From Tubulanus polymorphus (Eukaryota > Animalia > Nemertea): a stretch of DNA of 64,000 bases. Shown here one piece after another: positions 4,933 through 63,100 of this stretch. The translations under genes were made by a program, and so were the position numbers. The DNA lies in contig NC_134029.1 in the NCBI RefSeq assembly GCF_964204645.1, positions 24,112,950-24,176,949 of the forward strand, in the 5' to 3' direction. The notes beneath the pieces were generated by a model, which did no database searches, was not told where the DNA came from, and saw nothing but the letters and a program-made list of their open reading frames with translations. Position 1 is the stretch's first letter; every line of letters starts with the position of its first letter.

Positions 4933-17583
<12,651 letters not shown>

Positions 17584-26081: not shown

Positions 26082-29000
26082 ATGAGTGAATATTATATCG
26101 GTAAATCAGTGTCGATCGACTGCGGAGATGTTTTAGGCACGTATCAAGGCTTCGTATCTCAGGTCGATAAAGAACAACAAACGTTATCAATTATAAAAGC
26201 GTATCGGAATGGAATCTCGTGTCAGGTTCCGTCAATTACTATCAGGTAAATTATTAATCATTTCATAAACCTTAGTTTGAATCTGGATCCAGCTACAAAT
26301 GATTAAAGAATTAACTCCTAGGCCTACATCAGATCAAGATAAACTAAATTACGAAAAAAGTGTAATCATTTGTTGAGTTCAACTTAAAAATGGCTGCTGG
26401 GGGGGGGAGGGGGCGTGTTGGACGTAACAAACTGTTTAATCATATATAAAGTTGGTCTGAATTACATTGTTACAGTCCCCTACGACCTGTTGGGGAACAC
26501 TAGCTTTAGATACTAGACTCATTTCGTTTCAGTGCTGCTGATATTAAAGCTTTGAATATGATAGATACAGGACCAGTCCCGTCAGCTTACTGTAACCCTC
26601 CTCCAACACAAACTACCAGTACAACTAAACCTACTACTCCTCGTAAAAAGAAAGATGAGAATGAGAGGAGAGAAGAGTTCGGCAGACGTCGTTCTAATTC
26701 TTACTCAGGTACGGAAATTATCATTATCATCCTTCAGTTCACTGTTCAAACTATTCGAAAATACTTCAATCTTATCAACAAGACTGATAAAGAACAGACT
26801 GGCCTCACCTGGAAATCAGGAGAAGATCTTAAGTAATTTTGTAAAGAAGAGCTAAAAATCAGTGAAAGAGAAATTTGTTGAGATTGTGAGATCACGCATG
26901 AAATCGAACAGTTTCCGTCTATGTCTTATGTACTGGTATTTGACTGTGTTAATTGAGTGGATTCTTAGCAGATCGAGTCAGGGAAAGCAACATAGATTAC
27001 AGGCAGGGAAAAGTCAAATGAAAGTGGCGTCACCCTGAAGAAGACTTCAAATTTGCAAACAAGACTTCAAAGCCAATCATTCACTCATGATTTTTATTTC
27101 TAGCATCTGAACACAATGAAAAAGTACCCACTCGCCGCAGCGCGACTACCCCGAAAAAAATAGATCAGAGACAACATCAGCAGCAGAAACAACGAGGTGA
27201 AGTAAAAGATGATTGTTTCAGCGCGCCGGTCGAATCATTCCTAGAAGAGTTTGATTTCGAGAAGAATCTCGCGCTGTTCGATAAACAAGCGATATTTGAA
27301 GAGATCGAGAATAACATGAAACCGGACGTCGTTCGAAACACGGATAAACGAGCTCCGACGAAATATCGATGCGACGAAAACGTGCTTCCATCGGGACCGG
27401 TGATTTATCAACAGATTAAAATACCGCAACAATTCATCGCTGATAAACAATACGTTACTGGTAAATATTCAATATGCTTAGTAACTTCAGGGTTCTTACG
27501 GGAAGCAGGGAATTCTGAATGTTTTAGAAATCAGGGAAAAGTTCAGGGGATTTAAATTTTGGCGGTTTGTTCTTGCTGGTGACGAGTGGCACATGGATCC
27601 TCTCGATAAGAAACAGCTTCCTTTGAGGATAATTTAATCGAGGAACTTTTTGTCAGGAACTATCAACAAATTTTCGATTCCCTGATCTGTAAGAACCCTT
27701 CGAATTAATGAGGTATTTAGGAAATCTATCAGGCAATTTCTGGGAGCCAGATATTTACTAATGATAGTGTTACTGAATCAACTTGACTCTATCTCTGTCT
27801 CTACTCCACAGACCGTGGTTTAGTCGTGCCTAGTATCACATACTCGATGAAAGTAAAAATACAACAAACCGCTGAAAGATTTGGATTCGTTGCTCAGAGG
27901 CAGCTGGAAGCATTGGGTCGATCTACTGCTGAAATGGTTTTACAATTAATCGGAGGGAGTCACAGGTATTAACATCGTCAAATACAGTCACATCTCAAGG
28001 TCGTCGATCATTATATTGATGACTTAAGCTTAGTAGATTGAATTAGAAATACAAATTGGAGACAACTTCAATAATGTGGCTTATTGAATCACCAAGTTGA
28101 CCGTATTTGAATTGATTGGTTTGAGGATTGTTTTGTCGTTTGAATTTGCAGATTAAATCCTCAGAATTCTCACCAGCGACCGAGCGTTGTAATTCTGTGC
28201 GGCTCTCATATCCAAGGTGCTCAAGCTGTAAATTGTGCTCGTCATTTAATGAATCGTAGCGTGAATACGACTGTATTTATTCCCGAATCATCCCTCGTTC
28301 GTTCGTTAGCAGACGAACTGCATTTATACAACGTTTCAGACGGCAAGAAAGTTTCAACTGTCTCCGGTAACTATTCACTCTAACTCTCTCTTCCGCCACG
28401 CTCGTCAAAATTACGATAATTTCCGATATTTTTGCCACCAGAATCAGGAAATGTATCTGATTGATTTTCATTTGACAGGGCCGTCGGAGCAGGAGCGGCC
28501 ACAGCTGAACTAAAAATATTTTTTTTCATGTTCTTTCCTCTCGTGATGAATATCATGATTTTCATAGCCAGATTCATTCAGAATCAATCTCAGAGCTCGG
28601 GAACATCAAAAAAAAAATTTGGGGGAGGACCCCTAGACCCTTTTGAAATACAGCTACGTGGCAATCACATACTTTATCAGATCATCAATATAAACAATAG
28701 CCGCCCCACTGAAATTTTCCTTCCGACGGCCCTGTTTGAAGACACTCTGTAAAATTGAATACCGGTACCCGGTAATCTTTTTTGGATGTGAACTAATTTT
28801 AACTCAACTGACAAATGTAGAACAGGACCCTTGTTTCCATGGTTCTGATTTCATTTTGATTTAAGAGTTAAAATTAGTTCACTCTCAATTGTTTTGACTG
28901 CAGTCACATTGAACGGATGTCTTTAGAATTAGATCCAGTAATATGATTAATCAATGATTTCAATTACGCTTACCGGTATTTCATTAATTGATTTGTAGAA

Positions 29001-32943: not shown

Positions 32944-35558
32944 TCAATTAACGGCCAGCTCGACACTGATGAACTGTTTAAGTCGCTCCAAATATTGTCC
33001 GAATAATTCGACGTCGTTGTGCCCGGCGCCCTCGACCCACAGAGGCTCGACAGTCCGCGGGCAGCGTTCGTATATCGCTAACCCGTGCGAAAAATCAATA
33101 ACTTCATCCTCGGTTCCGTGTATGACCAATACGGGTGACGATATCTTCGGTACTTTATCGATGCTGCAATAGAAATTGAAAAACACAACAATCAGTCGTA
33201 GCCATAGAGATTGATAATCAATAGACACCAGGTATCTGACACACTACTAACAGTTACAAAAATATTATCGCCCTCAATTCAGCTGCTTGTGTTCATATTT
33301 ACTTAAAACATTCTGCATGTTTTACATCTTGTATTTAATGATGATGCTGTTCACATAATAGTTTAGCCATGGAGTGATCTGGTATTTTAATACACACATT
33401 CATGTCTTCCTGGAATCCTGGGGCTGCAGTTGCTCAAAAGTTGGTTAGTATTAACCAGTGGATAGTTGATATAGTGACAATTAAAAGTTCATAGTTTCTT
33501 CATGGTATTTATCCACTGGTTATCTTTAACCAACTTATGAGCAACTGCACTTTTTTGCAAGCTTGATTGATCACCAGTATAACAACTGTTAATTTACCAG
33601 CCGACTGATTACGCGTCGTGAGGAATGGCTACATTGTCACTCAGACCTATTACCAGATCTTTTGTGTAATGGTACATAGTGATGTGTCAAAAACAAATAT
33701 GGCTGATTTAGGAATTTTACAAATTGCAATAGTCTGGACACCAAAATACCATGAAAACATCACTAATTTCAGTAATGTGAACATCCCTAATTTCAGTGTC
33801 CACAGAGATCAGAGAATCAGTTCGGCTAAATTATCATTTACACATCTTTTTTGAGGTTTATACTTAAAGTATCATGGATCAGTATCAAAGGGAGTGGAGC
33901 CAGCTTTCATTTATTAGTGTCAAATCATTTAATAAACGTCATCCATTAAGAAATCAATCAACACAATAGAGAGAGTGGGAGAGGGAGTGGGAGAGGGAGA
34001 GTGTGGGAGAGAGGAGAGAGAGGTGATATCACGCCACAGCTGTGAGTTTCAGTGTAACCACATACTACAGTCAGCTGGAACACTATCAATCAATATGAAC
34101 TCAATTCAGAAACAATTCCATCAATATTTCATACATTTTTCCATAACTGACCAATGACATTTACAGTATTACCGTAACAGTGACAGTTACAGTGAGTGAC
34201 AGTAATACTGAAACAGTGGCAGTTTAAGACTGATAACTGGTTGATTACTGGAGTTGAGGACTCAAACACATCAGACTATTATCGATAAGTGTCTTACACT
34301 CAAATAGAACAACCTGTAACAGTAACAACTGTCACCCACCCTTGCCTCACTCCCTACTCTCAAGAGGCCATTATACACACTCAACCTTCTTCCCCACAAG
34401 ACACTGATGCCTAAGTAAAAGTACCATTTATTATGAAATCAATATCGATGCGAGTGAGAACCCAACGAGTCAGATACCAATAGGCCTTTATCAGACTTCC
34501 ATCCGTCCTTGATATTATTACAAGCCTCGTTGAAAAACATCATGCGCTACTTATGATGATCCCTACACGGCTCCTTATCTGGCTATTGTTCCCTTGGAAC
34601 CGGCTCCACAGTTGTCAGTTAAGATTTGACTCATTGAAAATGAACTTAAACTCATAGTTTATTAACTCACAACAATGGAAGTGGATCCTGAGTTCAGAGC
34701 TAACTCTATAACTCACAACTGTAAAACTGGATCCTGAGTTCAGAGTTAACTCTAACTCACAACAGTGATACAGGATCCTGAGTTCCGAGTTAACTCTTAA
34801 CTCATAACAGTGGAAATAGATCCTGAGTTCAGAGTTAACTCTAAAACTCACAACTTTGGAACTAGATCCTGGTATTTATACTTCTCCTTCCCTCAATGTT
34901 AAGATGCTTACCTGGGAAACGCGTCAAAGAACCAGGTGCGTTTAGTGTCAGGGAACGCGACCCTCATTCCAGACATAAGAGGTGAGTGTAAAACTACAGC
35001 TCCGACCTCGTATCGGGACGCGAGGTCTATAGTCGGTACCGTACCGATACTCTGACCATACAGTATTATATTCTCCGGGCTGATACCGTATCGAGTACGC
35101 AGAGCCTGCCACGCCGCGTCGATATCCGTGTAGAGATTCTTCTCGGACGGTCGACCAGAACTGATCCCGTAACCTGAGTAATCGAAACTAAATATATTAC
35201 AATTAATCCTCGAGCCGAGTCCGACGTAGAAACTGCTCATCTGCCCGAGATCGACGGCGTTACCGTGACTGAACAGTATTGTATACTTCGCGTGCGGTGA
35301 ACAGCGTACGAACATACACGCGATACGATTACCACGAGCGGTACGCGTCATGAAAACCTCGATCAGATCGAGCTCTTTCTGCGTGTACTGCCATTCTGCT
35401 CGGTCGGTCAGGTGCAGACTGTAACGCGACCCTGTCTCATCTGATATGAATGAATATGTCGGTTCGGGTGGAAGGAATGCTAGTTTCGCCGCGATTCGCG
35501 ATGGACACGGGGGACAGCAAAATAGACAGCATAGTTCACTGAATGATAAGCCGTTCAT
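32944..35558 (-). CDS. ABHD17: Alpha/beta hydrolase ABHD17 (protein depalmitoylase)
   Basis: Two exons, 35558-34912 and 33163-32944. N-terminal [11 protein letters not shown] cluster, GQSIG nucleophile elbow, HGTEDEVI and GAGHND complete the triad. Confidence 0.98.
33421..33550. mobile_element. Short palindromic MITE (related copy at ~29744-29872)
   Basis: TGCAGTTGCTCAAAAGTTGGTTA ... TAACCAACTTATGAGCAACTGCA inverted arms. Confidence 0.7.
34600..34871. repeat. Copy of the abundant CCAGTTCCACAGTTGTGAGTT MITE family with its end amplified as ~45 bp tandem units
   Basis: About 5 units of GAGTTAACTCTAACTCACAACTGTGGAACTGGATCCT. Related copies at ~8313, 24390-24482, 28790-28940, 32086-32275, 37098-37190, 45341-45448 and 56826-56935. 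Confidence 0.8.
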
Positions 35559-36760
35559 TTCGGCTCCGGCTTTGTGATCCCGTTCAGGAGGATCCCGTTT
35601 ACTGGAGAATGTGTTATACTTGCTGTTAGCAATGGTGACTGTTTAATATCGGATCCGCAACTCTGAAAATTCGCTAAATTCGCTTCGGAAAATTATTTAG
35701 AAAATGACGAATCTTTCGATTAATGAGTTTCTGTGGACTTTGTAGGAACTGTGCTCGGGTGGTCCCAGCCGCTGAGTGGTCATCGGCTCGGGCGTCGAGA
35801 AAGATGCAAACTAATCATTTAGATGACACGAAATGACGACATTAAATACTCGTGTCAAATTTATTTGCAGTCAGTTTTAGATATATTTCCATAAAGAAAA
35901 GAATTTTTCATCCGCAGATCTAGAAAGAAAATGTCTTTTTCTAAACTAAGTTTAGATTAGTATTCAAGTCTACTGGTCAAAATGTGTGAATGTAGTTTGT
36001 GAGAACCACGGATTCCTGAAAAAGTTTACTTTTGGTATTAGTTGCGGTTTGATAAGAATGAAATACGTTGCTTTCATTAATCCGAAGCGAGATATGATGA
36101 TTCGCCAGTTCACGCCCCTAACTAGAATGATTAGTATTTTAGTTTGTCGTGACCTATCAGCTCCGAGACTTCTCGTGGCATATACCGCGAACTATTTGAG
36201 TAATGACGTCAGTGAGAAGTGAAATTAAATTCTTATATTTATTAAAATGCATTCTATAGCTATCAATACATTTTTTGTCATTCAAATTATTTTTTTGCGT
36301 CCTCTACCTTTTTTGTATCTACATTTTTGAATAGTTTTGAATTCATTTGTTATTTCACAATTTATTATTCACTGCTGACCTACAATATGTCAGCGCCCAT
36401 GACCAAAAAATTTTGAATAAATGCATGAAACGTGTGCCTTCCTTCCTGCTTTTCTGATCAGCTTACCACGAAGAGCTTAATATATAGAAAGGGAAGTTCA
36501 TATCTGCAAATTCATTTTAGATAAGAAACAAGGTTCGTAACTGACACCCCATACCCTGCAGCCGTGCAGGAAAGTCAGACAATAAGTCAAGAGTCAAACT
36601 GCACCTTCTCTCTCCTCCGTCTCTCTCCGGGGCCCTCTTCATTTTCAATTCTCTCCAAATGCTCTACTCTGTACTATTAATATACTTCGAACATCATGCT
36701 GGTTTTTCCTTTCTTATCTTATATCATACGCAATTTGTAATTGTGGTAATTTCATTTCAG

Positions 36761-37917
36761 ATGAGTTCGCAGAAAGGAAACTCGAAAAGAACGCGTGGAC
36801 AGAAATATCAGAATAAATCAGCGTTTAAAAATAACCTACACGATACGAGTAAAATGACTAAATTATTGAATGAACTCGCTGTAACGGGAGTGTGCAAACA
36901 CTGCAGTGAAATCATTGACTGGAAAATCAAATATAAGAAATACAAACCACTGACGCAAGCTAAAAAATGGTATTCATTATTTAATGACCCAATTTCATGG
37001 TTATGTTTGACTTATTTACATAAAAATTAGCTCATTTCTGATCGTTTAATTAGTAGAGTAAAATGTTGGTTTTAATGTAACATGACCAATAACCAAATCC
37101 AGTTCCACAGTAGCTTGATCTAATTCCGCAGTAACTGAACTGAATCCAAATACTGTATAACCAGGTCCATTTACTGTTGAACTGGATCCAGATGTCTTTC
37201 TTTGTTGTGAATTTGAACAAGTGTAAATTTTGTCTAATTGCGTCTTTTGCTATTTCCAGTACTAAGTGTTTACAAAAGACTGTGAAGAAAGCTTATTACA
37301 TCATCTGTGAACCGTGTGCTAAAAAACATGAAGTTTGCGCGAAATGTGGCAAGAATGAAGAAATAGTTCAAGAGTAAGTTACAAATATCTGTCTGCAGTG
37401 ATTGTTATGGATGTGTTCAGTTTGACTAAACGATGATGATACTTTTTTCAGACCGCTGCCGTCAGAAGCTGAAGAAGCAAGAATGCAATCACAGTTTGAG
37501 CAAGAATTGAAACTTTTACCCGAACGAAAACGAAGTAAGTTGAAGATATCGAAGCTGCTTTGTAGGTTAATTCTAAAGGGTCGCGATGATTCTAGTTGAT
37601 ACCTAATTTAGATGTAATAATGGCTTCAGGCAAATTATAATTAATGTTTTGTAGAGACGTTTTTGAGACTTCAGGCAAGTGGTAAATTGACTGGTGAAAA
37701 TCTTAAAACAACGGAACAAGAAAATACAGATTTGTGTCAGTCTTCAGATTCATCAGACGAGGATGAAAATAGTGATGATAGAATTGAACAGTCAATATGT
37801 GAAGCGGAAAATGTGATCGTTGAAGGGCAAGAGACTTTTAATGGGGGAGAGCCTATTAGTGGTGGGCAGGGGGCAGAGACTGTCTGTGGGAGAGGGGCAG
37901 ACACTGTTAGTGAATGA
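36761..37917 (+). CDS. C9orf85: C9orf85 homolog (DUF2039 family)
   Basis: Exons 36761-36969, 37260-37373, 37452-37534, 37655-37917. MSSQKGNSKRTRGQKYQNKSAFKNNLHD, VCKHCSEIIDWKIKYKKYKPL, CxxC pairs, acidic tail. Confidence 0.93.
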
Positions 37918-50886: not shown

Positions 50887-51492
50887 AGTTTCCCGCTACC
50901 CAAGATTGGTTGCCAGTCTACCGCTATCCATCTTCGCTTGCCAGGGGTTACAAAGCGCTGTGATGGACCGCCCGAATTCCGGTTGCGTTTGAATCCCCTG
51001 ATAGGTGATGATGCAGGGGAGGGGAGCGATACTGACCCCTGGCAAGCGAAAGTCTCTGACTAAGTTAAATGACCTTAAAAATTCAAGATCGCTTTTTGAT
51101 TTATTTAAAGCTACGGCTGCCGGGCTGTTCTCTGTGTATATCGTGAACACACGACTGCGGCAAGCGAGCATTCCACTTGGTTCGTTAGTGTGATAATTCA
51201 TTGCCCGGCCATATTCGGGTTTTGCCCCTTAAATTCTAGCTACAGCCCTAAGTAGAGCCTAGTTTATCCGCAGCCAGCCGCCGGGTCACGTTAAGCTGTT
51301 ATAATCATTTCATTTCTAAGGCTAGGTCTCTGGTTAGCGATCGAGAGTGGCCGGTTCGCGGCTCCGCATCTTAAGCTCACGTGGATCAGCGATAGCGATG
51401 CACCACTGACACGAAAGTTTTCGGTGAAAGCCAGATCCGACCTTTGAATCTTCTCGTAGCCCGACCCTTTCTAAAACCACCCCATAGCCCGA

Positions 51493-51611
51493 CCTTACCG
51501 ATTTTGAAATAATCGCGAAACTCTGTAGTTCCACCCACTAGTTTTCTATATATAATCTGGGCGACGTCAGTGAATGCCTCTGGGAACGATCGAATCTGGG
51601 GCCTGGCCAAT
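51493..51611 (-). promoter_or_regulatory. Candidate TATA-type Pol II promoter firing leftward
   Basis: On the minus strand: CCAAT box (51607-51611), CRE-like TGACGTCG (51562-51569), TATATATAG (51546-51554), then a donor-like CG|GTAAGG at 51498. Confidence 0.45.
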
Positions 51612-52111
51612 CACATGCCAAGGCAGCGAGTGTTCCGGGGTCACCTAGATTAATATACATATATGATTGTAGAGCATCGTAGCATCGCTTTTGATTCAAC
51701 CAGGGTGAAACAAAAGCAGACTGATCCTTGCTGTTTAATTCGGGTGCTATATGAAATAGAAGGTTAGCGTTATAGATCACTGTTTTAAACATGTACGATG
51801 TGAATCTGATAGCAAAAACATGTGTTCGGGTATCATTGTTACGCACAGCCGGGCTGTGATATTAGACCCGCCACTAAATTAGCTGTCACGCGGATGAGCC
51901 ATGTAAAACTACACCGTCATATCGGCCCCGCCGCTTGGATACTTTTCCCGATAGTTTATGAACTAATGAATGCCCATATTTGGTATATTGAATCACACCA
52001 CCCAGTTGCTTTAACACTGCGCCATTATGTGACGTTGTTGTTGGAATTGTGAGTTTTAATGAGTTTATACGTGTTTCCAAAAGTGTTTAGAAATAAAGAA
52101 GAATAAACAAC

Positions 52112-55100
52112 ATGTCGTGGCTGGACAACCCTCTGTGGAGGAATAGATATGAGGAGGTATTTCAGAAAGCTACGGGAGGTGAAGGTGAATACAACACTAA
52201 ACTGAAGAAACAAGACGATATGTTAAAGGTTAGTTTAATTAGTTCGATAATTTAATGAAAACAATCTATAGCAACAAATAATATGTTTAGCTCACCAAAT
52301 TACTAAAACAGTTTCGATTGAAAATAATATTTCAGCTATGAGACGTTACATTTAAACGACTTGGTTTTCTGTGAACAAAAATGTGATAATGAACATTTTT
52401 TTAAGTTTCCACCGATTCAATGTAGAATCGTAGAACAGAAATCCTAGTTACTTTTGATACAATATGTATAATTATTGTCTAGGCGAGCTCGTCTTCAAAT
52501 TGCTTGGGCATGTTGGACAAAATAAATTTATCCACGAAGAAGGCAAAGCTTAAAATGTACATCGATAAAAATGAGAAAACGGCTGGTCCTAAGCCAGATA
52601 TCGGTGTCGGAGCTGCCGGGTAAGTCAATATTCTTATTAGATAAAAAGTCTCAATAAGACGCAGGTTTATCAGATTGTTTATGATATCTACATATGCAAT
52701 TCTGTGATATTCAGATACGCGACCGTTTTACAAAGCGTTAAAGATATCCCGGAAAATACGTTCTTCACACCGGGTCGATGTTTCCAGGCTCGAATCAGAC
52801 ACTTCAATTTTCCAGGTAATAGATTGGAATTGCATCAAATATTCTCTGAAACTGCAACGACTCCAACTGGTCAACCATGGCGTGTAGGCGCGACAAGTGT
52901 AAACAAAAATCGTTAATAATGTTTTTGACTGAGAATCGAGGGAGATTGGACAGTCATGTATTCGATTTAAAGCAAACATCTTTAAGTTAACGACACAACT
53001 TTATCAGTACTCTAAAAAAATTAAACCCCTTGTTTCGTTCCTGGCAATCGTGGTGGATTTGTAAGGGACGCTACGATCTTATTCATATCAATCAAATAAA
53101 TAAGAGAGACAATCATACTCATTTCGAGATAGAAAATACAAGGTAACATTGATCGTGATCGTGAATCTGTTCGATTTCAGAAAGTGACGATAGAGCTCCA
53201 AGTTTCCGAGGTCTAGTATTAAAACTAACAGATAAACATACGGGCGGACCGCTGGATATGATGTTTATAACAGGACCTCAATGTGCTCATCCCACTATAG
53301 CTGTTCTAGACTCGTATTTACACGCCATAAAAGCCGGGCCGCAACAACTTAAAACACATTTGCTTCAATATCCCGTTTTGTAAGTATGAATTCTGACAAG
53401 TAAACGTATATAAGTAGATTACAGTAGTTTGGATCTCAAGTCTAAAGTTTTGGATAAGAGAAATGCATTTGGTACGCTTATGAATTTGCTTGCGTCAAAC
53501 ATCAGTAAGTGACCGTGAAGTGATTAGCTCGGAGCATGCGAATAGTTATTCCGAATTACTCAGATATCTTAGAAAGGAAGCAACGGACTGAAGTTTGACT
53601 GATTTTATTTGAAAACAGGAGCTTTTGCAATTGTTGCCTAGAGTAGCTTCATCGTATAGGAATCTTTCATATAAATGTAGCGCTTCCTCACTCATTCCAC
53701 GGAGCCCCTGATGATGTTGAAATTGATCAAAATAAAACACCCATATTGAAGTGGCATGCTGATCAATGAATTGTCTCTCATGTCGCTAGTTGGCATTAGA
53801 ATAATCGTTATTAGTATAGTTCTACTGTTTCGATATCCCTAGTAAAATTACCTTTCAACCCTTGGTCTTTATTGCTGCTTAATCTACCCCTTTCTTTCAA
53901 CATTTCTGTGGCATCCCTTTTTTGTTACAGCCTTTAGTGTTGTGGATGTCATTTTGATAATGTCAAAATTGTCGATTACACACATATATACGTGTACACT
54001 GTTATTCATATATTGATGGATAAAGTTATTACTGATGATTTTATAATTCGACGTGTTTTTCTCTTTCAGGTTGGAAGCTTATATCGGTGGCGTTCGTAAG
54101 AATCTTATTTCTTATGCCGATCAATTCTACTACAATCAATGTGTATATTTCATGCGTGGTTCGGACAATGCTGATTACATGGTTCGTTTCCGGGTCATTC
54201 CGGCAGACACGACGGAAGAGTCTGGTCTTCTCTCCGACGAAGATCAAATGCACGTCTGGTAAGAATGATGCTGATATCGATGCCTTTCTCATCAGCAATC
54301 AATGGCATTTTACTTCACCTACTAATTTGTCGTCACATACATATGAAATGATTTGATCTAATGTAAAATATATACATTTATGATTCTAAAAAATGAATCC
54401 AAAAAATGAAATGAAGATGTTTGTATATTGTAGGGATCTGAAAGTCGATGATGATAATAGAACTGCTGATTATCTGAAAAACGAATATTACGACAGAGTT
54501 AAAACGGGACCTGTTTACTATCTGTTACAGATGCAGGTATTTCACGCTCCATTTTTCTGTTCTTAATTCACAATCTGGAATTTCTTTTAAAATGAATTCC
54601 ACATTCAAGGGTAATAGGCCTACTGTAATTGAGTCAGTAAAACTCATAACATCTTAACAAGAAAAATGAACCCACGATATCAACAGAACTTGAAATATGT
54701 TGTATGTATTATTTTGTAGTGGAGACCGGCTATGAATGATATTGGTCCTGAGGTGACGAGTGGTGCATTGAAGTGGGATGCTGAGAAGTTCCATTATTAT
54801 AATTTGATGGTAGTTAATATCGATTGTACGGTTCCTTTGGACTCATTGAACGCCACAAAATGGGACCTCACTAAAATACCGCCAATACTTAAACAGCCTA
54901 CTCCTAAAGGTAGGAAATCATCTTCAGGCTTGTTTCGCACAGAGTCACCTAACAGTGAAAAAATAGTTTACATTGACGTGTTTTGATTAACATTTTAAAT
55001 ACATCCACTATATCTAGAGAATACTATCTTGAATAATATTACATCTAATGATTGCATCAATTTTATTTTGTTTTTGTTTTTGTTGTTAAGAGCATTGATA

Positions 55101-58100
55101 TTGTTCTTAATATAAAGCGCTTCTGAGAAATAGATTCTGACCCCTGATTTCGAATCTATAGTTTTTCATTCTAACAGGCCTCGGAGATTTCGCCCTTGTT
55201 CCGTTAACTATACACGAAATTGACATGTATATGACGGACGTCCCGAATCACATGAAAAAACAATCGAAAAACGAAGCTAAAAACGACACCGGTATCAACG
55301 TGCAATACACGATCAACGTACAAACTGGGAACCTAGGTGGCGCTGGTACTGATGGGAATGTAAGGATCACGCTGATAGGTACGTTTCATCATTGACATTT
55401 TTGACCGACTGTTTCGTCGGTATTTCCGTGTCGTAGCTATGGTCTATTCTCTTCTAAATTCATCTACCGGCAGCCATCTTCAAAAACATAGGCAGAATTT
55501 TGTTGATTTGATATTTTGCAACGTTCTAAAATCATTTAGTATTTCACAGGGCCCAGCGCTTATTTGATTCTTTATCAATTTTCAATTTTCAATTTTTGAG
55601 GTTTAGCCTGCTGTCTTGCACTCGGCCAATCAAACTTGTGTTTTGACTTACGTATAAGAATTACGTAAAATAAATTATCACTCATCATTTCACAGGGCCC
55701 AGCACCAAACAGTACTTCATCAAATTTCAATTTTAGAAGTACAGCTTGCTAGCTCGCACTCGGCCACTCGGCCACTCATGATTTATCGCCAATCAAACTT
55801 AGATTATCACTCATCATTAACTGTAGGTAAATTAGGAAGAACATCGCGCCACAATCTCGATACAGATCGTCACGATGATTTCGAAGCCGGTCAACTCGAC
55901 TCGTATAAGTTCGAAGACCGAGAAATCGGTGAATTTCTGATGGCACAAATCGACCTGGACGTGCGGACAGGAAGAGAGGACTGGTATTTGGAACACGTGG
56001 AAATCTTCATCAAAAGCGACGGTTCGGACGATCGTCGTATTTTCCTTCCTTGCAATCATTGGTTGACGAAAGAGTTTCCGAGTTATCAACTAAAAGAAAT
56101 TAATGGTAAATCATCGAACCTGACTTTCACTATACATGAATTCAGCATCCGAAGTTCCACATTTCGAGTCCGATTTTTCATATTCGATTTAACCATCGTC
56201 AGCCAGACTGTTGAAGGCACGGAGCCTTTTCGGGATTGAATCGAAGTGCCATGAGAATGTTTTAAGAAGAACTTAAGTGTCGATGTACTAAAGTGATACT
56301 TTATACTCAGCATCCTATAGAGCGTGCTCTGTGAAAGCAACTAGGGACCATTGCACATATATGGCTTAGATTTAAGACCAGCTAATGGCCATCTCAGTTT
56401 GTAGTCAATCTAACTACTTATGATCAGTCTTTATTTACATTATGATCTAAGGCCATTTTTGGACTCGACAATCATCACGACTGTGCAACTGAGACCAGGA
56501 TTGGATGAATAAGAAAATATGTATTGTTTTATGTTTTATGGTTCCAGTTTGTATCATGGATCGTGAGCAGAATCCACGAATGCGGCTTCAGCGTCGATAC
56601 GAGGTTCAGGAGAAACAGAATTTGTATAAGTGGTGTTTAGACTTCCCTGGTTTACCCGGACACGCGTTCTCTGGACCGAATCACGAACACGATAAACTAC
56701 CGCTCGATATTCAGTTTGATCAGGAGAAAAAGAGCGATTTTTGGGCCGGAATTTATCAGAGTAGAATGAATTTAGGTAATTCAACCCGATCGATGGTTCG
56801 TTGTACAACTGGAAATAGAGAATCAGTGGATCCAGTTCCACACACAGTTGTGAGTCATGATATTTGAGAATCGAGGATTGAACTGATTTCAACTCTTGGG
56901 TCACACCCAACGCATTACGTATTACGGAACTGGTTCCATTCGTCTTTATTTCCTTGAATAAAAGATTTTTCTATGACTGGAATAACGTAATTTCATCGCA
57001 TCTTAAATTTTGCATTTTTGAATTTTTTATTTTTGTTGAAAGGTTTGGGTCAAATCGCAGCTACGTTCGAACCTTGGGATGAATTCGACGATTACACGAA
57101 TTACATAACTAAAGCTCTACCGTTGTCAAAACAACGCGACTACATCATTCAACATTGGCGAGAAGATATCGAATTCGGGCGTCAGATTATGAACGCTAAC
57201 GCGCCGAACCTGATCTACAGATTGACGGAAATACCCGAGAACTTTCCGATTGACAGGGAACTTTTGGACGCGTTGTTGAAACGAGACATCAGTCTTGAAG
57301 CTGAAATACAGGTTCGCGAACAGATAACCTTCGTGTTTGCAACATATTTCTTAAAAGGATCAAAATAAAAAGAATAAGAACAAATACTTGAGACACTTTT
57401 CTAATTTTTCAGGACGGTAACATGTACATGGTGAATTTGGATGGTCTTGCCGGCATAAAATGTTATCGTAGTCAAAACGAACGAAGATTTATTTGTCATC
57501 CTATGTGTCTACTGTACGTAAGACCGGACGGTACGCTAGTACCGATAGCTATCCAGCTATTCCAGCGTCCCGGCGATAAGGTACCGATCTGGACCCCGAA
57601 GGATGATCCGTTAGATTGGCTCTACGCGAAAATCTGGTTCAAATGCGCCTTCGCCCAGTACAGCACCATGTACGTGCACCTGCTAATGACGCACCTGGTT
57701 ACTGAAGCTGTTTGCATAGCTTCCCTCCGTACGATGCCTTCCTGTCACCCGGTACACGCCTTACTGCAGCCTCATATGAAATACACAGTCGCTATCAACA
57801 CTTTAGGCAAACAGATCTGGTGGCCCGGTGACCACATCGTTGATAAGACGCACTCTATCGGCGGGGGAGGTCAATTAGATTTCATGGGTCAGATGTACCG
57901 CAATTTCAACATGGGGCAATTGAATATTCCAGAAGATATGAAAAGACGCGGCGTTGATGATAAAGAGAAGTTACCCGGTTATCATTACAGAGATGATTCT
58001 CTGTTACTCTGGGACACAATACTGACCTACGTCACGGAGTATATCAAGCTCTATTACAAGTACGATTACGATGTCGGTCGCGACGTAGAATTCCACAACT

Positions 58101-58931
58101 TCTTACGCGATCTGAAAGAGAACGGTTTCTATCATTGGGAAAACGACGAAGATCACGGCGTCCCGGAGAAGATCACTACGATAAAAGGTTTATCGGTTTT
58201 CCTCACTGGGATCATATTCAACGCCACTTGTCAACACGCGGCCGTCAATTTCAGCTCGTTGGATATGTTGGCTTTTCAACCGAATTGTCCAACTGCTCTC
58301 GGTAAACCACCGCCCACGAAGAAGGGGCTGCGTCTTCCAGAAGTGATGGACGCTCTTCCCAATAAGGAAATCGCCTCGCATGTAACGTGCATGGCGAATG
58401 CTTTGACGCAGTTTGCCGATAAAGAGGTAACTCGTATTTTGTATTTCATTAATTACAAACGTTTCTGTTCTTGTCATTGTTATGTGTATGGTGTATTGAA
58501 GAAGATTGTGAAATAAACACAGTACACTCCTTCCTCCTTGTTAAATCGGCACCGGTCGATCCGATGAATTTCACTTTTTGAAATACCTTCCTTCTTTACT
58601 GATTCTCAACATATAGGGAAATATTTACAGCAGCCTCAAAACTAGCGATTAAGGCAGTGTTGACTTTTACTAATTTTGCAATAGACGATATGTTTTGTTC
58701 ACAGTCGTTTCTTGACAAACACCATTGAAAACACGACCTTTTATGTTTCAGGAATACCTGGGTCTGTATCCCAACTGTTTCTACGAGGAGGAACGACTGC
58801 ATAAAGTTGTCATCGATTTTCAGGAGAAACTGAAAGGTGTTTCTGAAGCTATTCGTAAACGGAATGAAGATCTCGCTTGTCCGTACGAGTACCTGCTTCC
58901 AGAACGTGTCCCCAACTATACCGGAATCTAA
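52112..58931 (+). CDS. Catalase-like (allene oxide synthase-type) domain + PLAT + lipoxygenase fusion protein
   Basis: 13 phase-consistent exons: 52112-52228, 52483-52619, 52715-52815, 53181-53379, 54070-54258, 54434-54536, 54720-54909, 55178-55378, 55827-56105, 56548-56775, 57043-57311, 57413-58426, 58752-58931. AOS-like blocks FFTPGRCFQARIRH, GPLDM, EESGLLSDEDQ, DYLKNEYYDRVKTGPV. PLAT blocks YTINVQTGNLGGAGTD, DDFEAG, PCNHW. LOX blocks WLYAKIW, HLLMTH, QHAAVNF and C-terminal PERVPNYTGI. Colinear with coral AOS-LOX as recalled. Confidence 0.94.
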
Positions 58932-59715
58932 ACTTCACTCCAATCAAACAACAATGAACACTGAATTATCAATGTGATGATAGTATCTTTAATATCACGA
59001 AATAATTAATGTATTTTGCATATCATGAAACCGAAGAAGCTCTGGACGGAGCCATAAAGAGGCTTACATACATCATTAATGGACGATAAGGCATTTCGTA
59101 TTTAAACAATGTTGGGGCTAACTACAGAATATATTCATATTTATTCACAGTTTTTCAGATATAAGTAAGTTTCATCTTCATGTATTTATGGTTTCATTTA
59201 TTACCGTATAATGAAGATCATCTGAATTTTAAATCTACAATTTTGGATCCAATGCCACAACATCAATCATGAGGTCGTAGTGATTAACTAATAGTTAGAT
59301 TTTGTGACGCTGGACCCTATGGGCTTATTATCCTGAAGCGTAATCTCAATGTACTGCAATATTGTAAAATAAACTTCTTGAATTATAAATTATCTTTAAC
59401 GGGAGCCAGGAAGCTATTAATTGATTTGTTGCACTGTCGTATTTTCTTGCTGAATAAATTCTACAGCATAAAAGCAAAACATTTAGTAGTATATACAACA
59501 TCATCAGCATACGATACGCAGAATCTACGAAGCATCAAGAACTCGGTTAAGTCGTCGTAGTTGGGATTAGATCATTACGCTGACACCTTATCCAAATATT
59601 CACTCACTTTGATCAATTGAATTGGAAATAAAGATCTAGACTCAAAATAGAAACGACTTCGGTGTCAACTTGTCCGACGACGACCTAACCGAGTTTGACA
59701 TGTCTCAGTCAATTA

Positions 59716-62016
59716 TTAAACACTTTCTGTGTTGACTGAACCGGTTTCTGATGCTTGCTCGGATTCGAACGTGCTGTATCTGTTATTAGCATCAGCAGCA
59801 GCGGTTCTTCTTAAGAGGGGTGCCTTCAGTCGACGGTGGCGACGTATCGACAAGGCGACGACCAAAACTACCATGACGGCCACGCACAAAGTTCCAATTA
59901 CAATACCAGCTACGGAACTAGTTGATAGACCATCGACGACACCAGTTCTCGCGGCCGGTCCAGTCTGGTCGGAAGCTGGCTTATCCGCCGGTTGAATAGA
60001 CTTCCATTCGCCCTGATAGATCGCTTTAGCCGTCGGCAAGTCGACTTCCTTCCAGGTTCCGGTCTCCATACTCTTGTATTTGATTCTTCGGTCGGCTGTC
60101 ATCAGGAACATCGAACCGTTGATGATAGTGAGCGGTTTAGGGTTGTACGGAGGACGCCGGATTAAAGGTAAACCGATACCCATCGGAATCGAGTTCGCTT
60201 TGGCGCAGAAGTTGATTTCGCACCCGTCGCTGATTAATGCCAAGTGTTGACTGAATCCAATAGGACATCGTTTTGGCCACGATTTCGGGTCCGCATTTTT
60301 CTGCAAATATCCAAGAAGTGAATGCAGTTGATTCGTGTTCTGTTTGCTACTCTGAAGGATTCCCGTGTGTTCCAGAATTGTCAGTGGATTTCCACTTTCA
60401 CAGCTAAAGAATCCGGCGAACGGCACAGAATACCTGAAGCCGAACTCATAATCATCGCTGACGCAAACGAAGGCACTTTCGGTCATCTTTAACGGGTAGA
60501 AATGAGTGGGACAGTTTTGCTGTTTAGTCAAAGGATTCGACTGCGATGTGGTGTAAGTTCCTCCGAATAGATACCCAGAGTTCGGTTGTACGGTATGAGT
60601 CGCGGCGCACCAGTACGTCCGGTAAAGCGGAGTCCCGGTATTCGCACCAGTAACGTAACATTCAGTATGACATCTTTTGAATATCCACCAACCGTGACAT
60701 TTCTCCTTGCAAACGAACCCGGGTCCGTTGTGAATCAGAACACTTTCGTAGTCATCAGGACAGCTATATGTACCGGTTTTCGGATTAACTTGCGCGTATT
60801 TTCCGCAGTCTCCGAGTGGACTTTGACACGTTTGATAGACGCCTCCGAAAGTAAAGTTATTCGACGAACCTTTACAAGTTCCGTCGTCGATATTTGCGTC
60901 GATATCGAAATTTTTAGAATTCGAATTCGTGCAGCCTTTATACGCGTTGTGTTTGTAATACGACTCGACGGCTTCGCGAACTGTTTCCGCTAATTGTTTA
61001 ACGTCGTGAAGCGGCAAATCACGGAAAGTCTCGGGAGTTATCGCGTAGTGTAACGGATCACCGAATCGATCGACGGCCACGAGATTATCGTGAAGTCCAT
61101 CTTCCCATTGATTCAGAGTGAAATTCGCTCGGAATGCCGGACCTCCGTACGTAAAAATCTGTGAATGTTTACGATTTTTGATGTATTGATCGATCAGTTC
61201 TTTACTGGTCGAATGTGAATAAGAACCACCACCGCCGAACATACCCAGGAAGGAACCACTCGCCGCAGCTGTCACCTTAGATTTATCCATACTGTATCTG
61301 TTCACATAAGATGCGTTAATCGAATCAGTTTGGACGATGGCACCACCAGCGTCCTTACCAGTGACGTAATGAGTGCCAAAATCACGCACCAACAACTGCG
61401 CCAAATACCGAGCGCCTCTCTTATCACCGGCTTGAAGGAAGGAGACGATATCTCTGGACTGAGAGTCGAACCCGGGGGCTAGGGGAGTACCAGGTTCAGC
61501 ACGGATCTTGTAGAGTGTATGACGTACCTGAACACGTGACGTGACTGTGTCGTCGTTAACCTGACTCTTTCTAATCGATTCTTTCTCGGAGGAATACGAA
61601 CCGCTTACACTCCCGAACCATCCGAATGACGCATGCGCATCGGCGTTAATCGTGCGCGAATCAGTACTGGTAAAGTTGGTCCAATGATCGTATATTTGAG
61701 ACGTGATGTCGACGCTGCTACGTTTCTCAGGAGTCACCGTGACGTCATCCGGTATGATATAGCGACGGTCTAGAGTTATACGGCAGTCATCGTACCGGTG
61801 TTTCAGCACCATTCCCATCTCAACATTACGTAGATTATCGAATCCGGCTCCGGGCAGGACGTCCATGATATCCTTCTGCAGCTGCGGGCAGTGTTGCGGA
61901 TCATCTTTGCGGTATTTGAAACCATTCGCTTCTGCCACCGCTGCATCGGAAGCACCAGCGGCGACCCACATTCCACCACAGCAAAATAACAGACAGATCA
62001 GGAGAACAGATTCCAT
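59716..62016 (-). CDS. MPEG1: Macrophage-expressed gene 1 / perforin-2 (MACPF + P2 domain + TM)
   Basis: Intronless ORF with signal peptide from ATG 62016 (MESVLLICLL). Motifs VLPGAGFDNLRN, DFGTHY..DAGG, NFTFGGVYQTC, GYLFGG, FAGFFSCESGNPL, CPIGFSQHLA; C-terminal TM helix followed by RRHRR. Confidence 0.97.
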   Translation of the reverse strand: MESVLLICLLFCCGGMWVAAGASDAAVAEANGFKYRKDDPQHCPQLQKDIMDVLPGAGFDNLRNVEMGMVLKHRYDDCRITLDRRYIIPDDVTVTPEKRSSVDITSQIYDHWTNFTSTDSRTINADAHASFGWFGSVSGSYSSEKESIRKSQVNDDTVTSRVQVRHTLYKIRAEPGTPLAPGFDSQSRDIVSFLQAGDKRGARYLAQLLVRDFGTHYVTGKDAGGAIVQTDSINASYVNRYSMDKSKVTAAASGSFLGMFGGGGSYSHSTSKELIDQYIKNRKHSQIFTYGGPAFRANFTLNQWEDGLHDNLVAVDRFGDPLHYAITPETFRDLPLHDVKQLAETVREAVESYYKHNAYKGCTNSNSKNFDIDANIDDGTCKGSSNNFTFGGVYQTCQSPLGDCGKYAQVNPKTGTYSCPDDYESVLIHNGPGFVCKEKCHGWWIFKRCHTECYVTGANTGTPLYRTYWCAATHTVQPNSGYLFGGTYTTSQSNPLTKQQNCPTHFYPLKMTESAFVCVSDDYEFGFRYSVPFAGFFSCESGNPLTILEHTGILQSSKQNTNQLHSLLGYLQKNADPKSWPKRCPIGFSQHLALISDGCEINFCAKANSIPMGIGLPLIRRPPYNPKPLTIINGSMFLMTADRRIKYKSMETGTWKEVDLPTAKAIYQGEWKSIQPADKPASDQTGPAARTGVVDGLSTSSVAGIVIGTLCVAVMVVLVVALSIRRHRRLKAPLLRRTAAADANNRYSTFESEQASETGSVNTESV

Positions 62017-62119
62017 GATTCTGGAATCAACAGCGATATTCAATTCTAATAACCATATATCAGAAAGAGAAGCGAATGCTTCCACCTCGACTGGAGTTGT
62101 TTTAAGTATATGAATCTGA

Positions 62120-62553
62120 AGCCTATTTATTGTCTCTCAAAAGGGGAAATGAGTTTGGGGAAGCCCAATTTGTAATCAAGGCATTTATGATTGGTTGACG
62201 TGATAGTTCATACATCCCTGTGAGTCATCTGATCGTGATTTCCAGACTTTTGTTCATTTAGAAAGCAATTCAAATTGTCCCAGTTTTACGAGTATTGTAC
62301 AAGTATTTCCAGAATTTAGTGAACAGGTAAAACAGCAAAATGCTTATTTTCGCTGAGTTTTTATTATCATAAGTCGATCGAAGTCTGTAGTTAGGGTTTT
62401 CATCAAACCTGTTTAAACAATAATAGAATATCTAGGTTATGACGATATACGATTAGTCAATATTGCGAGCAATTTAGAGCAAATTTTTAACCATCATGTG
62501 AAAAGTTTTGGATCGTATTCAAGATAATGGCGCGTGACAGTTATGGGAATCCC
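62120..62553 (-). promoter_or_regulatory. MPEG1 upstream region with immune-type motifs
   Basis: TATA-like ATAAATAG (~62123-62130, minus strand), kB-like GGGGAAGCCC 62157-62166, CCAAT 62190-62194, TGACGT 62196-62201, AP-1 TGAGTCA 62221-62227, kB-like GGGAATCCC 62545-62553. Confidence 0.5.
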
Positions 62554-63100
62554 GATGACCTTTCACTATCGAGATAACCAGGGAGATTAAACATTGATAC
62601 TGACTGGGTTTTTATAGCGACAAAGGTTACTATAGACTTGTCAATGAACTGTGACAATAATAACTTCACCTTTCATAGCTAATATGAGTTTGTAGGTCTT
62701 ATTATAAACAGCAAGAACATGTGAGGTTTATAGAATAGATCATTTTAAAAACAAACAACAACAACAATTCATTATCTAGTGAATATCAAAGTTTGAAAAT
62801 GAATAACTTATGTTATTTATATTCAACTCAGTGTACAGGGGTCACAGCAAACCAATTTACATGTACCAGTGATTGATTGTCAGTTTTTCAAAGTTGATAA
62901 GCGAAACCCACAGTAAAAACTGTTGATTATTTCAACGTTTTGAGGTTTTAACTAAACCTGTCCGGTGAAAATATTAGAATCTCGAAACTGTTAGAATCAT
63001 CAACCTGTGGGTTTTCGCTTAAGTACCAAAATCAAATCCTACATTTTAATGCGTCGTCTATCAAGGTGGCTAAAGTCTAATTATATATAACTGATGAGTT

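What the first reader, a model, noticed from the sequence alone, without database searches (positions are those of the whole stretch)
52483..55230. AOS-LOX fusion whose catalase-like domain has lost all canonical heme ligands (candidate pseudoenzyme module)
Seen: the N-terminal domain is encoded by 8 intact, in-phase exons with no stops or frameshifts. Known: coral (Plexaura homomalla) AOS uses distal His67 (RATH), distal Asn137 (MNTG) and proximal Tyr353 with Arg349 (RVAVY). By-eye ungapped alignment gives RRATHTVGTGGIG -> AGPKPDIGVGAAG (His->Pro, codon 52594), GPLDIVMNTG -> GPLDMMFITG (Asn->Ile, 53267) and DYNSIGELRVAVY -> DFALVPLTIHEID (Arg->Ile, Tyr->Asp, 55222). The structural blocks around these sites are conserved. 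Inference: the fold is maintained but is not a canonical heme enzyme, so it may act as a lipid-binding, regulatory or scaffold domain, and the protein may release hydroperoxide instead of allene oxide. His (55213) or Tyr (55228) nearby could be alternative ligands.
Basis: partly seen in the sequence, partly recalled or inferred. Interest (0 to 1): 0.85.

Follow-up and report, generated by a model that had tools for sequence, protein, structure and literature searches.

The report
Haem-less catalase domain on worm lipoxygenase
A ribbon worm keeps an intact gene for a coral-type two-part lipid-signal enzyme whose haem half has lost most of its haem-holding residues yet is predicted to fold normally, so it likely serves as a non-catalytic helper of the lipoxygenase half, and similar losses recur in bivalves and amphioxus.

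Summary
Real, with corrections. The gene (13 exons, 52112-58931, 1068 aa; Tubulanus polymorphus by database label) is an AOS-lipoxygenase fusion. Its N-terminal domain matches coral AOS (E 7e-33; model rmsd 2.2 A over 356 residues) but lacks His67, Thr66, Arg349, Arg64 and Arg360. Tyr353 aligns to Asp361 or, with a two-residue insertion, to Tyr363: unresolved. Asn137 loss is uninformative (6 of 12 intact relatives lack it). The domain keeps 39 of 51 conserved non-haem positions but 1 of 6 haem positions, so it is not a decaying relic. The worm has two ligand-intact paralogues. The loss is not unique: 14 of 22 other animal representatives (bivalves, amphioxus, leech) lack Tyr353, from at least two origins, and one coral case is in print. 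The lipoxygenase keeps all five iron ligands, but its invariant active-site Leu is Trp. Best reading (0.6): haem-free pseudoenzyme module on a lipoxygenase that would release its hydroperoxide. No RNA, haem-binding or activity data. The scan had no look-alike of this DNA; it had noted Tyr-less bacterial relatives. New variant of a known kind; interest 0.45.

The parts
   Evidence: identical to the start of public model P0001; aligns to the N-terminus of coral AOS
52483..52619 (+). exon 2; Gly74, Lys76, Pro77 (codons 52585, 52591, 52594) at coral Arg64, Thr66, His67
   Evidence: residues 74-77 have pLDDT under 50 in the model
52715..52815 (+). exon 3; Arg113 (coral Arg102, kept; 52797) and Phe115 (52803; Ala/Ser/Gly in 12 of 12 intact relatives, Phe in 6 of 6 bivalve-clade rows)
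53181..53379 (+). exon 4; Ile148 at coral Asn137 (53267); Phe147; His155 (53288) at a Phe/Leu position
54070..54258 (+). exon 5, catalase-like barrel
54434..54536 (+). exon 6; carries the one replacement polymorphism seen (Val252Ala)
54720..54909 (+). exon 7, catalase-like domain
55178..55378 (+). exon 8; proximal helix with Ile357 (Arg349), His358, Asp361 or Tyr363 (Tyr353), Pro368 or His370 (Arg360); linker; start of PLAT domain
55827..56105 (+). exon 9, PLAT (C2-like) domain
   Evidence: Pfam PF01477 E 1.6e-15 on residues 389-494
56548..56775 (+). exon 10, conserved lipoxygenase segment that the public 968-aa model skips
   Evidence: tblastn of relatives E 2e-5 and 8e-5; alignment; in frame
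57043..57311 (+). exon 11; the public model enters it only at 57114
57413..58426 (+). exon 12, lipoxygenase core: His760 (57677), His765 (57692), Gly803 (57806, R-type switch), Trp807 (57818, invariant Leu position), His946 (58235), Asn950 (58247)
58752..58931 (+). exon 13, ends in Ile1068 (iron ligand) and TAA

Best explanation
This is an unbroken AOS-lipoxygenase fusion gene whose catalase-like domain has lost the distal His and three of four haem-holding Arg residues but is predicted to keep its fold, and likely works as a haem-free, non-catalytic module on an iron lipoxygenase. Shown: gene structure, residue losses, selective retention of the non-haem core, intact iron ligands, two ligand-intact paralogues in the same species. 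Inferred: without His67, Arg349, two propionate Args and probably Tyr353 the domain cannot cleave hydroperoxides, so the lipoxygenase product (R-configured by Gly803; position unpredictable because Trp807 replaces the shielding Leu) would leave the protein as hydroperoxide, to be reduced or used by the intact paralogues. Inferred and weakest: the domain is kept because it packs on the PLAT/lipoxygenase part and tunes it (about half of this reading), or holds a fatty acid in the emptied pocket (about a third).
For: Fold: E 7e-33 to coral AOS 1u5u; AlphaFold model, blocks of residues 81-350 at pLDDT 77-94, aligns to 1u5u at Z 44.3, rmsd 2.2 A, 356 residues. Site loss. Constraint: 39 of 51 non-haem columns conserved in 12 intact relatives are kept (76%; leave-one-out range of the intact ones 72-93%; 18% identity at other columns) against 1 of 6 haem columns. 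Haplotype differences in codons 1-372: 1 replacement, 3 silent, pN/pS 0.09, p 0.03; all three indels in 52000-55500 are intronic. Paralogues P0073 and P0101 of the same species keep Arg64, His67, Arg102, Arg349, Tyr353, Arg360. Precedent for long retention: all 6 bivalve-clade rows lack His67 and Tyr353; their stem branch is 1.04 in this domain against 0.42 in the rest, the crown 2.68 against 2.17. PMC5617202 (passages) places AOS helices against the lipoxygenase domain in coral.
Against: No RNA, protein, haem-binding or activity data. Tyr363 can be aligned to Tyr353. The domain's end branch is 1.61 times that of the rest of the protein (tree-wide 1.04; but intact paralogue P0073 1.99). The polymorphism count is four changes from one haplotype pair. 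The intact set was defined by three of the six haem columns, and the structure model rests on an alignment with the ungapped register. The full-length model does not reproduce the coral domain arrangement (rmsd 26 A to 3dy5). No orthologue from another nemertean was found. Trp807 and the public model's missing 100 residues leave lipoxygenase activity open. Seven unnamed relatives keep His67, Asn137, Arg349 and Arg360 without Tyr353, so loss of that Tyr alone need not mean loss of haem.
Confidence: 0.6

Rival explanations
1. The domain still binds haem through a shifted or new ligand (Tyr363 after a two-residue insertion, His358, or His155 on the distal side) and has changed chemistry or acts as a haem or redox sensor.
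For: Five of five MAFFT modes on 13 rows, the 8-row alignment and hhalign place Tyr363 on Tyr353; HMMER confidence falls to 4 of 9 there; Arg102 is kept; His155 stands where intact relatives have Phe or Leu; Tyr-less relatives with an otherwise full pocket exist.
Against: Arg349, Arg64, Thr66 and His67 are absent in either register; both models give one continuous helix over this stretch (352-371; 350-365 at pLDDT under 50), which would turn Tyr363 away from the pocket (inference); Phe115 replaces a small residue beside the distal pocket; none of His155, His358 or Tyr363 is shared with other degenerate lineages.
Confidence: 0.15
2. The domain has no job: it is a passenger that selection keeps foldable only because a misfolded N-terminus would wreck the lipoxygenase behind it.
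For: This also predicts a kept core with a lost active site and a somewhat longer branch; loss recurs in many lineages by different routes.
Against: A useless 370-residue N-terminal domain is easily lost, and stand-alone PLAT-lipoxygenases are common in the same phyla; the bivalve domain changes as slowly as the lipoxygenase part within the crown group (43-80% against 44-88% identity).
Confidence: 0.17
3. Both halves are altered: the lipoxygenase is also no normal dioxygenase (inactive, or a hydroperoxide isomerase like eLOX3), or the main transcript is the 968-aa form lacking 100 conserved residues.
For: Trp at the invariant Leu in 0 of 108 other representatives, 99 have Leu; the Leu positions the substrate and shields oxygen (PMC11003420, PMC13059375 passages); fusions of Lingula and one amphioxus group lack both first iron His; public model skips exon 10.
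Against: All five iron ligands and 55 of 62 strongly conserved lipoxygenase columns are kept; exon 10 and the start of exon 11 are conserved, in frame and flanked by AG/GT, whereas the public model's acceptor lacks a pyrimidine tract.
Confidence: 0.08

Closest known systems
Coral catalase-related AOS-8R-lipoxygenase fusion (Plexaura homomalla; PDB 1u5u, 3dy5) and HPL-LOX of Capnella imbricata
   Same: Domain order catalase-like / PLAT / lipoxygenase, length about 1066-1068 aa, fold of the first domain (rmsd 2.2 A), five iron ligands, Gly at the R/S switch.
   Different: Lacks Arg64, Thr66, His67, Asn137, Arg349, Arg360 and probably Tyr353; Trp at the invariant Leu of the lipoxygenase; no activity shown.
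Stony-coral AOS-LOX paralogues with altered AOS residues (Orbicella faveolata XP_020618715.1; Acropora sequences), PMC5793058 section 2.1.2
   Same: Published note of a fusion lacking Thr66 and His67 with Tyr353 changed to Leu, lipoxygenase ligands kept (sections 7 and 10 read).
   Different: One predicted coral sequence, mentioned without test of fold, selection or function; not examined here; different lineage.
Bivalve (Sinanodonta, Potamilus, Mya) and amphioxus fusions annotated as AOS-LOX or 5-LOX-like
   Same: Full-length catalase-like domain without Tyr353; bivalves also without His67 and share Phe115 and Phe147 with this protein.
   Different: Other residues are lost by other routes; common origin with bivalves is neither shown nor rejected (AU p 0.21), with amphioxus included it is rejected (AU p 1e-5). 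No description of them was found in the searches listed.
eLOX3 (ALOXE3) hydroperoxide isomerase
   Same: Lipoxygenase fold with iron but little dioxygenase activity (PMC13059375 passages): a model for what an obstructed site could do.
   Different: Only an analogy; no sequence feature of eLOX3 was tested here.

Membership tests
AOS-LOX fusion (by descent and architecture) | catalase-like domain, PLAT and lipoxygenase in one reading frame | tested here: met
catalase-related AOS/HPL haem enzyme | catalase-core fold | tested here: met
   predicted model against 1u5u Z 44.3, rmsd 2.2 A, 356 residues
catalase-related AOS/HPL haem enzyme | distal His67 (with Thr66) | tested here: not met
   Pro77 or gap, Lys76; no His in residues 1-113
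catalase-related AOS/HPL haem enzyme | proximal Tyr353 | tested here: inconclusive
   Asp361 (HMMER); Tyr363 (MAFFT on 13 rows, hhalign)
catalase-related AOS/HPL haem enzyme | Arg349 beside the proximal Tyr | tested here: not met
   Ile357 in all alignments; no Arg in residues 270-372
catalase-related AOS/HPL haem enzyme | haem-coordinating Arg64, Arg102, Arg360 | tested here: not met
   1 of 3 kept (Arg113); all three are in 12 of 12 intact relatives
catalase-related AOS/HPL haem enzyme | distal Asn137 | tested here: not met
   Ile148; weak feature, absent in 6 of 12 intact relatives and described as non-essential in PMC5617202
catalase-related AOS/HPL haem enzyme | bound haem and hydroperoxide turnover | not testable with these tools
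   needs protein
iron lipoxygenase | three His, Asn and C-terminal Ile iron ligands | tested here: met
   His760, His765, His946, Asn950, Ile1068 (ligand list from PMC5793058)
iron lipoxygenase | invariant Leu of the arched helix, one turn after the Gly/Ala switch | tested here: not met
   Trp807; 99 of 108 other representatives Leu, 0 Trp
iron lipoxygenase | dioxygenase activity | not testable with these tools
   needs protein
pseudoenzyme domain | catalytic residues lost while the fold stays under constraint | tested here: met
   constraint rests on conserved columns and four polymorphisms, not on dN/dS between species
pseudoenzyme domain | shown lack of activity and a shown non-catalytic role | not testable with these tools
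   needs protein and genetics

The most novel reading that the evidence does not exclude
Bilaterian AOS-LOX fusions have repeatedly turned their haem domain into a haem-free catalase-fold module with a job of its own (a lipid-binding or lipoxygenase-gating domain), and the nemertean, bivalve, brachiopod and leech proteins descend from one such ancient lophotrochozoan paralogue (all share Phe147); in this worm it sits on a lipoxygenase with a remodelled, Trp-lined site that makes a product unlike coral 8R-HpETE.
Probability: 0.2. Interest if true: 0.7.

Novelty: new variant of a known kind. Interest (0 to 1): 0.45.

Why it matters
Databases name such proteins 'allene oxide synthase-lipoxygenase-like', and transcriptome studies read them as allene-oxide makers. 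In this sample 15 of 23 animal representatives lack the haem Tyr in the main alignment, including every bivalve-clade row, so many would release hydroperoxides or something else. A catalase fold kept without haem across distant bivalve orders would be an undescribed kind of pseudoenzyme module, and the worm offers a clean test: one degenerate and two intact paralogues in one genome.

Tried and rejected
No whole genome was held, so paralogues come from protein databases only. RNA: no RNA holder listed; the four runs laid gave no splice joints and three behave as DNA; the guessed RNA run laid nothing; no evidence on expression either way. Word-index searches with the N-terminal domain and an 18-row alignment returned only 1 and 2 proteins: insensitive, no evidence of absence. 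Alternative exons restoring the His, Asn or Tyr motifs: none by tblastn or motif profiles over all six frames of the window; one six-residue match near 51230 runs into a stop. No paralogue in the window. Sister relation to Lingula (SH-aLRT 81-97) collapsed in the careful mixture-model tree: not claimed. Shared derived residues with bivalves (6) do not exceed those of an intact paralogue (5): not claimed as proof of orthology. A second fold from the gapped 8-row alignment was too poor to settle the Tyr register (mean pLDDT 55.8). The ESM Atlas look-up gave only catalase-family clusters under 0.9. Complex prediction of the domain with PLAT was not available; no result. Papers on the coral structures, on Asn137 and on the Leu mutants were not held; supplements of the papers read were not opened, and the alignment figure files of PMC5793058 may bear on the coral precedent. 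The pN/pS row for codons 248-505 used a truncated variant list and is not used.
Full report
Gene. Reading 51500-63000 and correcting trial splice models gave 13 exons from 52112 to 58931, all introns GT-AG, 1068 codons and one stop. A search with exon 12 returned a 100% match labelled Tubulanus polymorphus (nemertean), 968 aa (P0001). That public model equals mine for residues 1-505 and the last 463, but omits 100 residues (exon 10 and the start of exon 11). The omitted part is conserved in relatives (tblastn E 2e-5 and 8e-5; alignment), and the public acceptor has no pyrimidine tract, so the 1068-aa form is the better model. No RNA was found to decide.

Identity. Residues 1-384 match coral AOS 1u5u at E 7e-33; Pfam finds PLAT and lipoxygenase but no catalase family on P0001. 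An AlphaFold model from a 55-row alignment has mean pLDDT 85.4; residues 74-77 (the old His loop) and 368-383 are under 50. It aligns to 1u5u at Z 44.3, rmsd 2.2 A over 356 residues. The best Foldseek match of the whole model is the coral fusion 3dy5, with rmsd 26 A, so the domain arrangement is not modelled.

Haem site. PMC5617202 (passages) lists Arg64, Arg102, Arg360 as haem-coordinating, Thr66, His67, Asn137 as distal and Tyr353 as the ligand; PMC5793058 (passages and sections 7 and 10) adds Arg349. Of 271 proteins held at that point, 78 hit a domain profile and 70 covered enough of it to be aligned; they reduce to 38 representatives at 90%, 12 of which keep His67, Arg349 and Tyr353. The query reads Gly74, Lys76, Pro77, Arg113, Ile148, Ile357, Asp361, Pro368. 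Asn137 is absent from 6 of those 12, so it carries little weight. The Tyr is the soft spot: HMMER and the large alignments give Asp361, while small MAFFT alignments and hhalign insert two residues and give Tyr363. The structural alignment ends with the same +8 offset as at residue 340, and the helix is continuous in both models, which favours Asp361, but the good model was fed the ungapped register and the other is of low confidence. His67, Arg64 and Arg349 are missing in either register. No other exon in the window restores a motif.

Constraint. Among columns conserved in at least 80% of the 12 intact domains, the query keeps 39 of 51 outside the haem site and 1 of 6 inside (p 0.007; 19 of 21 against 1 of 6 at 100%); intact domains left out one at a time keep 72-93%, and identity at other columns is 18%. 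Three of the six haem columns define the intact set. Contigs of a public DNA run differ from the window in codons 1-372 by one replacement and three silent changes (pN/pS 0.09, p 0.03), a single haplotype pair that may be the assembled animal. On a fixed 19-row tree the domain's end branch is 1.61 times that of the rest of the protein; tree-wide 1.04, intact paralogue P0073 1.99. This fits a kept fold with a lost site, not plain decay.

Relatives. A profile search of 1.84 billion representatives (best 150 listed) and cluster look-ups gave two more Tubulanus fusions with all of Arg64, His67, Arg102, Arg349, Tyr353, Arg360. Of 23 animal representatives, 15 lack Tyr353 in that alignment: the query, 8 bivalve-clade rows (one unnamed, placed by trees; one partial), 5 amphioxus and a leech. 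The sample is biased by a query profile that held such proteins and is no census. Trees (28, 29, 19, 18 rows; fragments and redundant rows left out) do not resolve the query's place. AU tests on 19 rows reject one clade of all Tyr-less domains (p 1e-5), reject query plus its two paralogues weakly (p 0.02) and do not reject query plus bivalves (p 0.21); the fewest changes of the Tyr state is 4. In bivalves the domain shows a long stem (1.04 against 0.42) and then a crown rate like the lipoxygenase part (2.68 against 2.17): a burst at the loss, then lasting constraint. Phe147 is shared by the query, bivalves, Lingula and the leech and by none of 12 intact or 4 amphioxus rows, a hint of common origin only.

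Lipoxygenase half. All five iron ligands are present and Gly803 predicts R stereochemistry; 55 of 62 columns conserved in 85% of 108 other representatives are kept. The exception that matters is Trp807 at the invariant Leu (99 of 108 Leu, none Trp), described as the clamp on the reacting carbon and the oxygen shield (PMC11003420 and PMC13059375, passages). Activity and product therefore cannot be read from sequence.

Mechanism. Most likely (0.6) a haem-free pseudoenzyme domain on a lipoxygenase, the AOS chemistry left to the paralogues. Its retained role is inferred: packing on the PLAT/lipoxygenase part, as coral AOS helices do (PMC5617202 passage citing a paper I could not open), or holding lipid in the emptied pocket. 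Rivals: passenger fold 0.17, haem on a shifted ligand 0.15, both halves altered 0.08.

Novelty. Ten full-text searches (listings and abstract starts only, except the five papers cited) showed no description of this protein or of haem-less AOS domains in bilaterians; pseudoenzyme + catalase + heme + lipoxygenase gave 0 papers, nemertea + lipoxygenase 1 unrelated. Subscription journals are largely missing from that library. One coral fusion lacking Thr66, His67 and Tyr353 is noted in PMC5793058. The scan's own index had no look-alike by sequence and notes on Tyr-less bacterial relatives by words. That pseudoenzymes often arise from duplicated enzymes is recalled, not looked up.

Noticed in passing
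proteins P0074 (Lingula) and P0075 (amphioxus cluster of 9 members): Fusions whose lipoxygenase half lacks both first iron His; P0075 also lacks Arg102, Arg349, Tyr353 and Arg360 yet its cluster spans several Branchiostoma species: a candidate doubly inactive fusion.
   Followed up: partly
proteins P0006, P0009, P0010, P0011, P0267-P0270 (Sinanodonta, Potamilus): Consecutively numbered locus tags suggest a tandem array of at least seven His67-less, Tyr353-less fusions in a freshwater mussel.
   Followed up: partly
window 56548-57113: The public 968-aa gene model skips 100 conserved codons; likely a prediction error or minor form.
   Followed up: yes
window 59719-62013 (-): Intronless 765-codon MACPF-domain gene with a likely signal peptide, tail to tail with the lipoxygenase gene (Pfam E 2.5e-19); resembles MPEG1/perforin-2 (name recalled).
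   Followed up: partly
window 15762-16268 (+), 27091-27552 (+), 34911-35642 (-), 36545-37027 (+): Exons of a ligand-gated ion channel, an FDF-domain protein, an alpha/beta hydrolase and a DUF2039 protein.
   Followed up: partly
window 53018-53069 and 55540-55820: A short interspersed repeat in intron 3 that other contigs match at under 90%, and a short direct duplication in intron 8 seen in the sequence.
   Followed up: no
proteins P0052, P0059, P0093, P0102, P0109, P0114, P0115 (unnamed or hypothetical): Seven fusions that keep His67, Arg102, Asn137, Arg349 and Arg360 but not Tyr353: a different kind of change, possibly haem on another ligand.
   Followed up: partly
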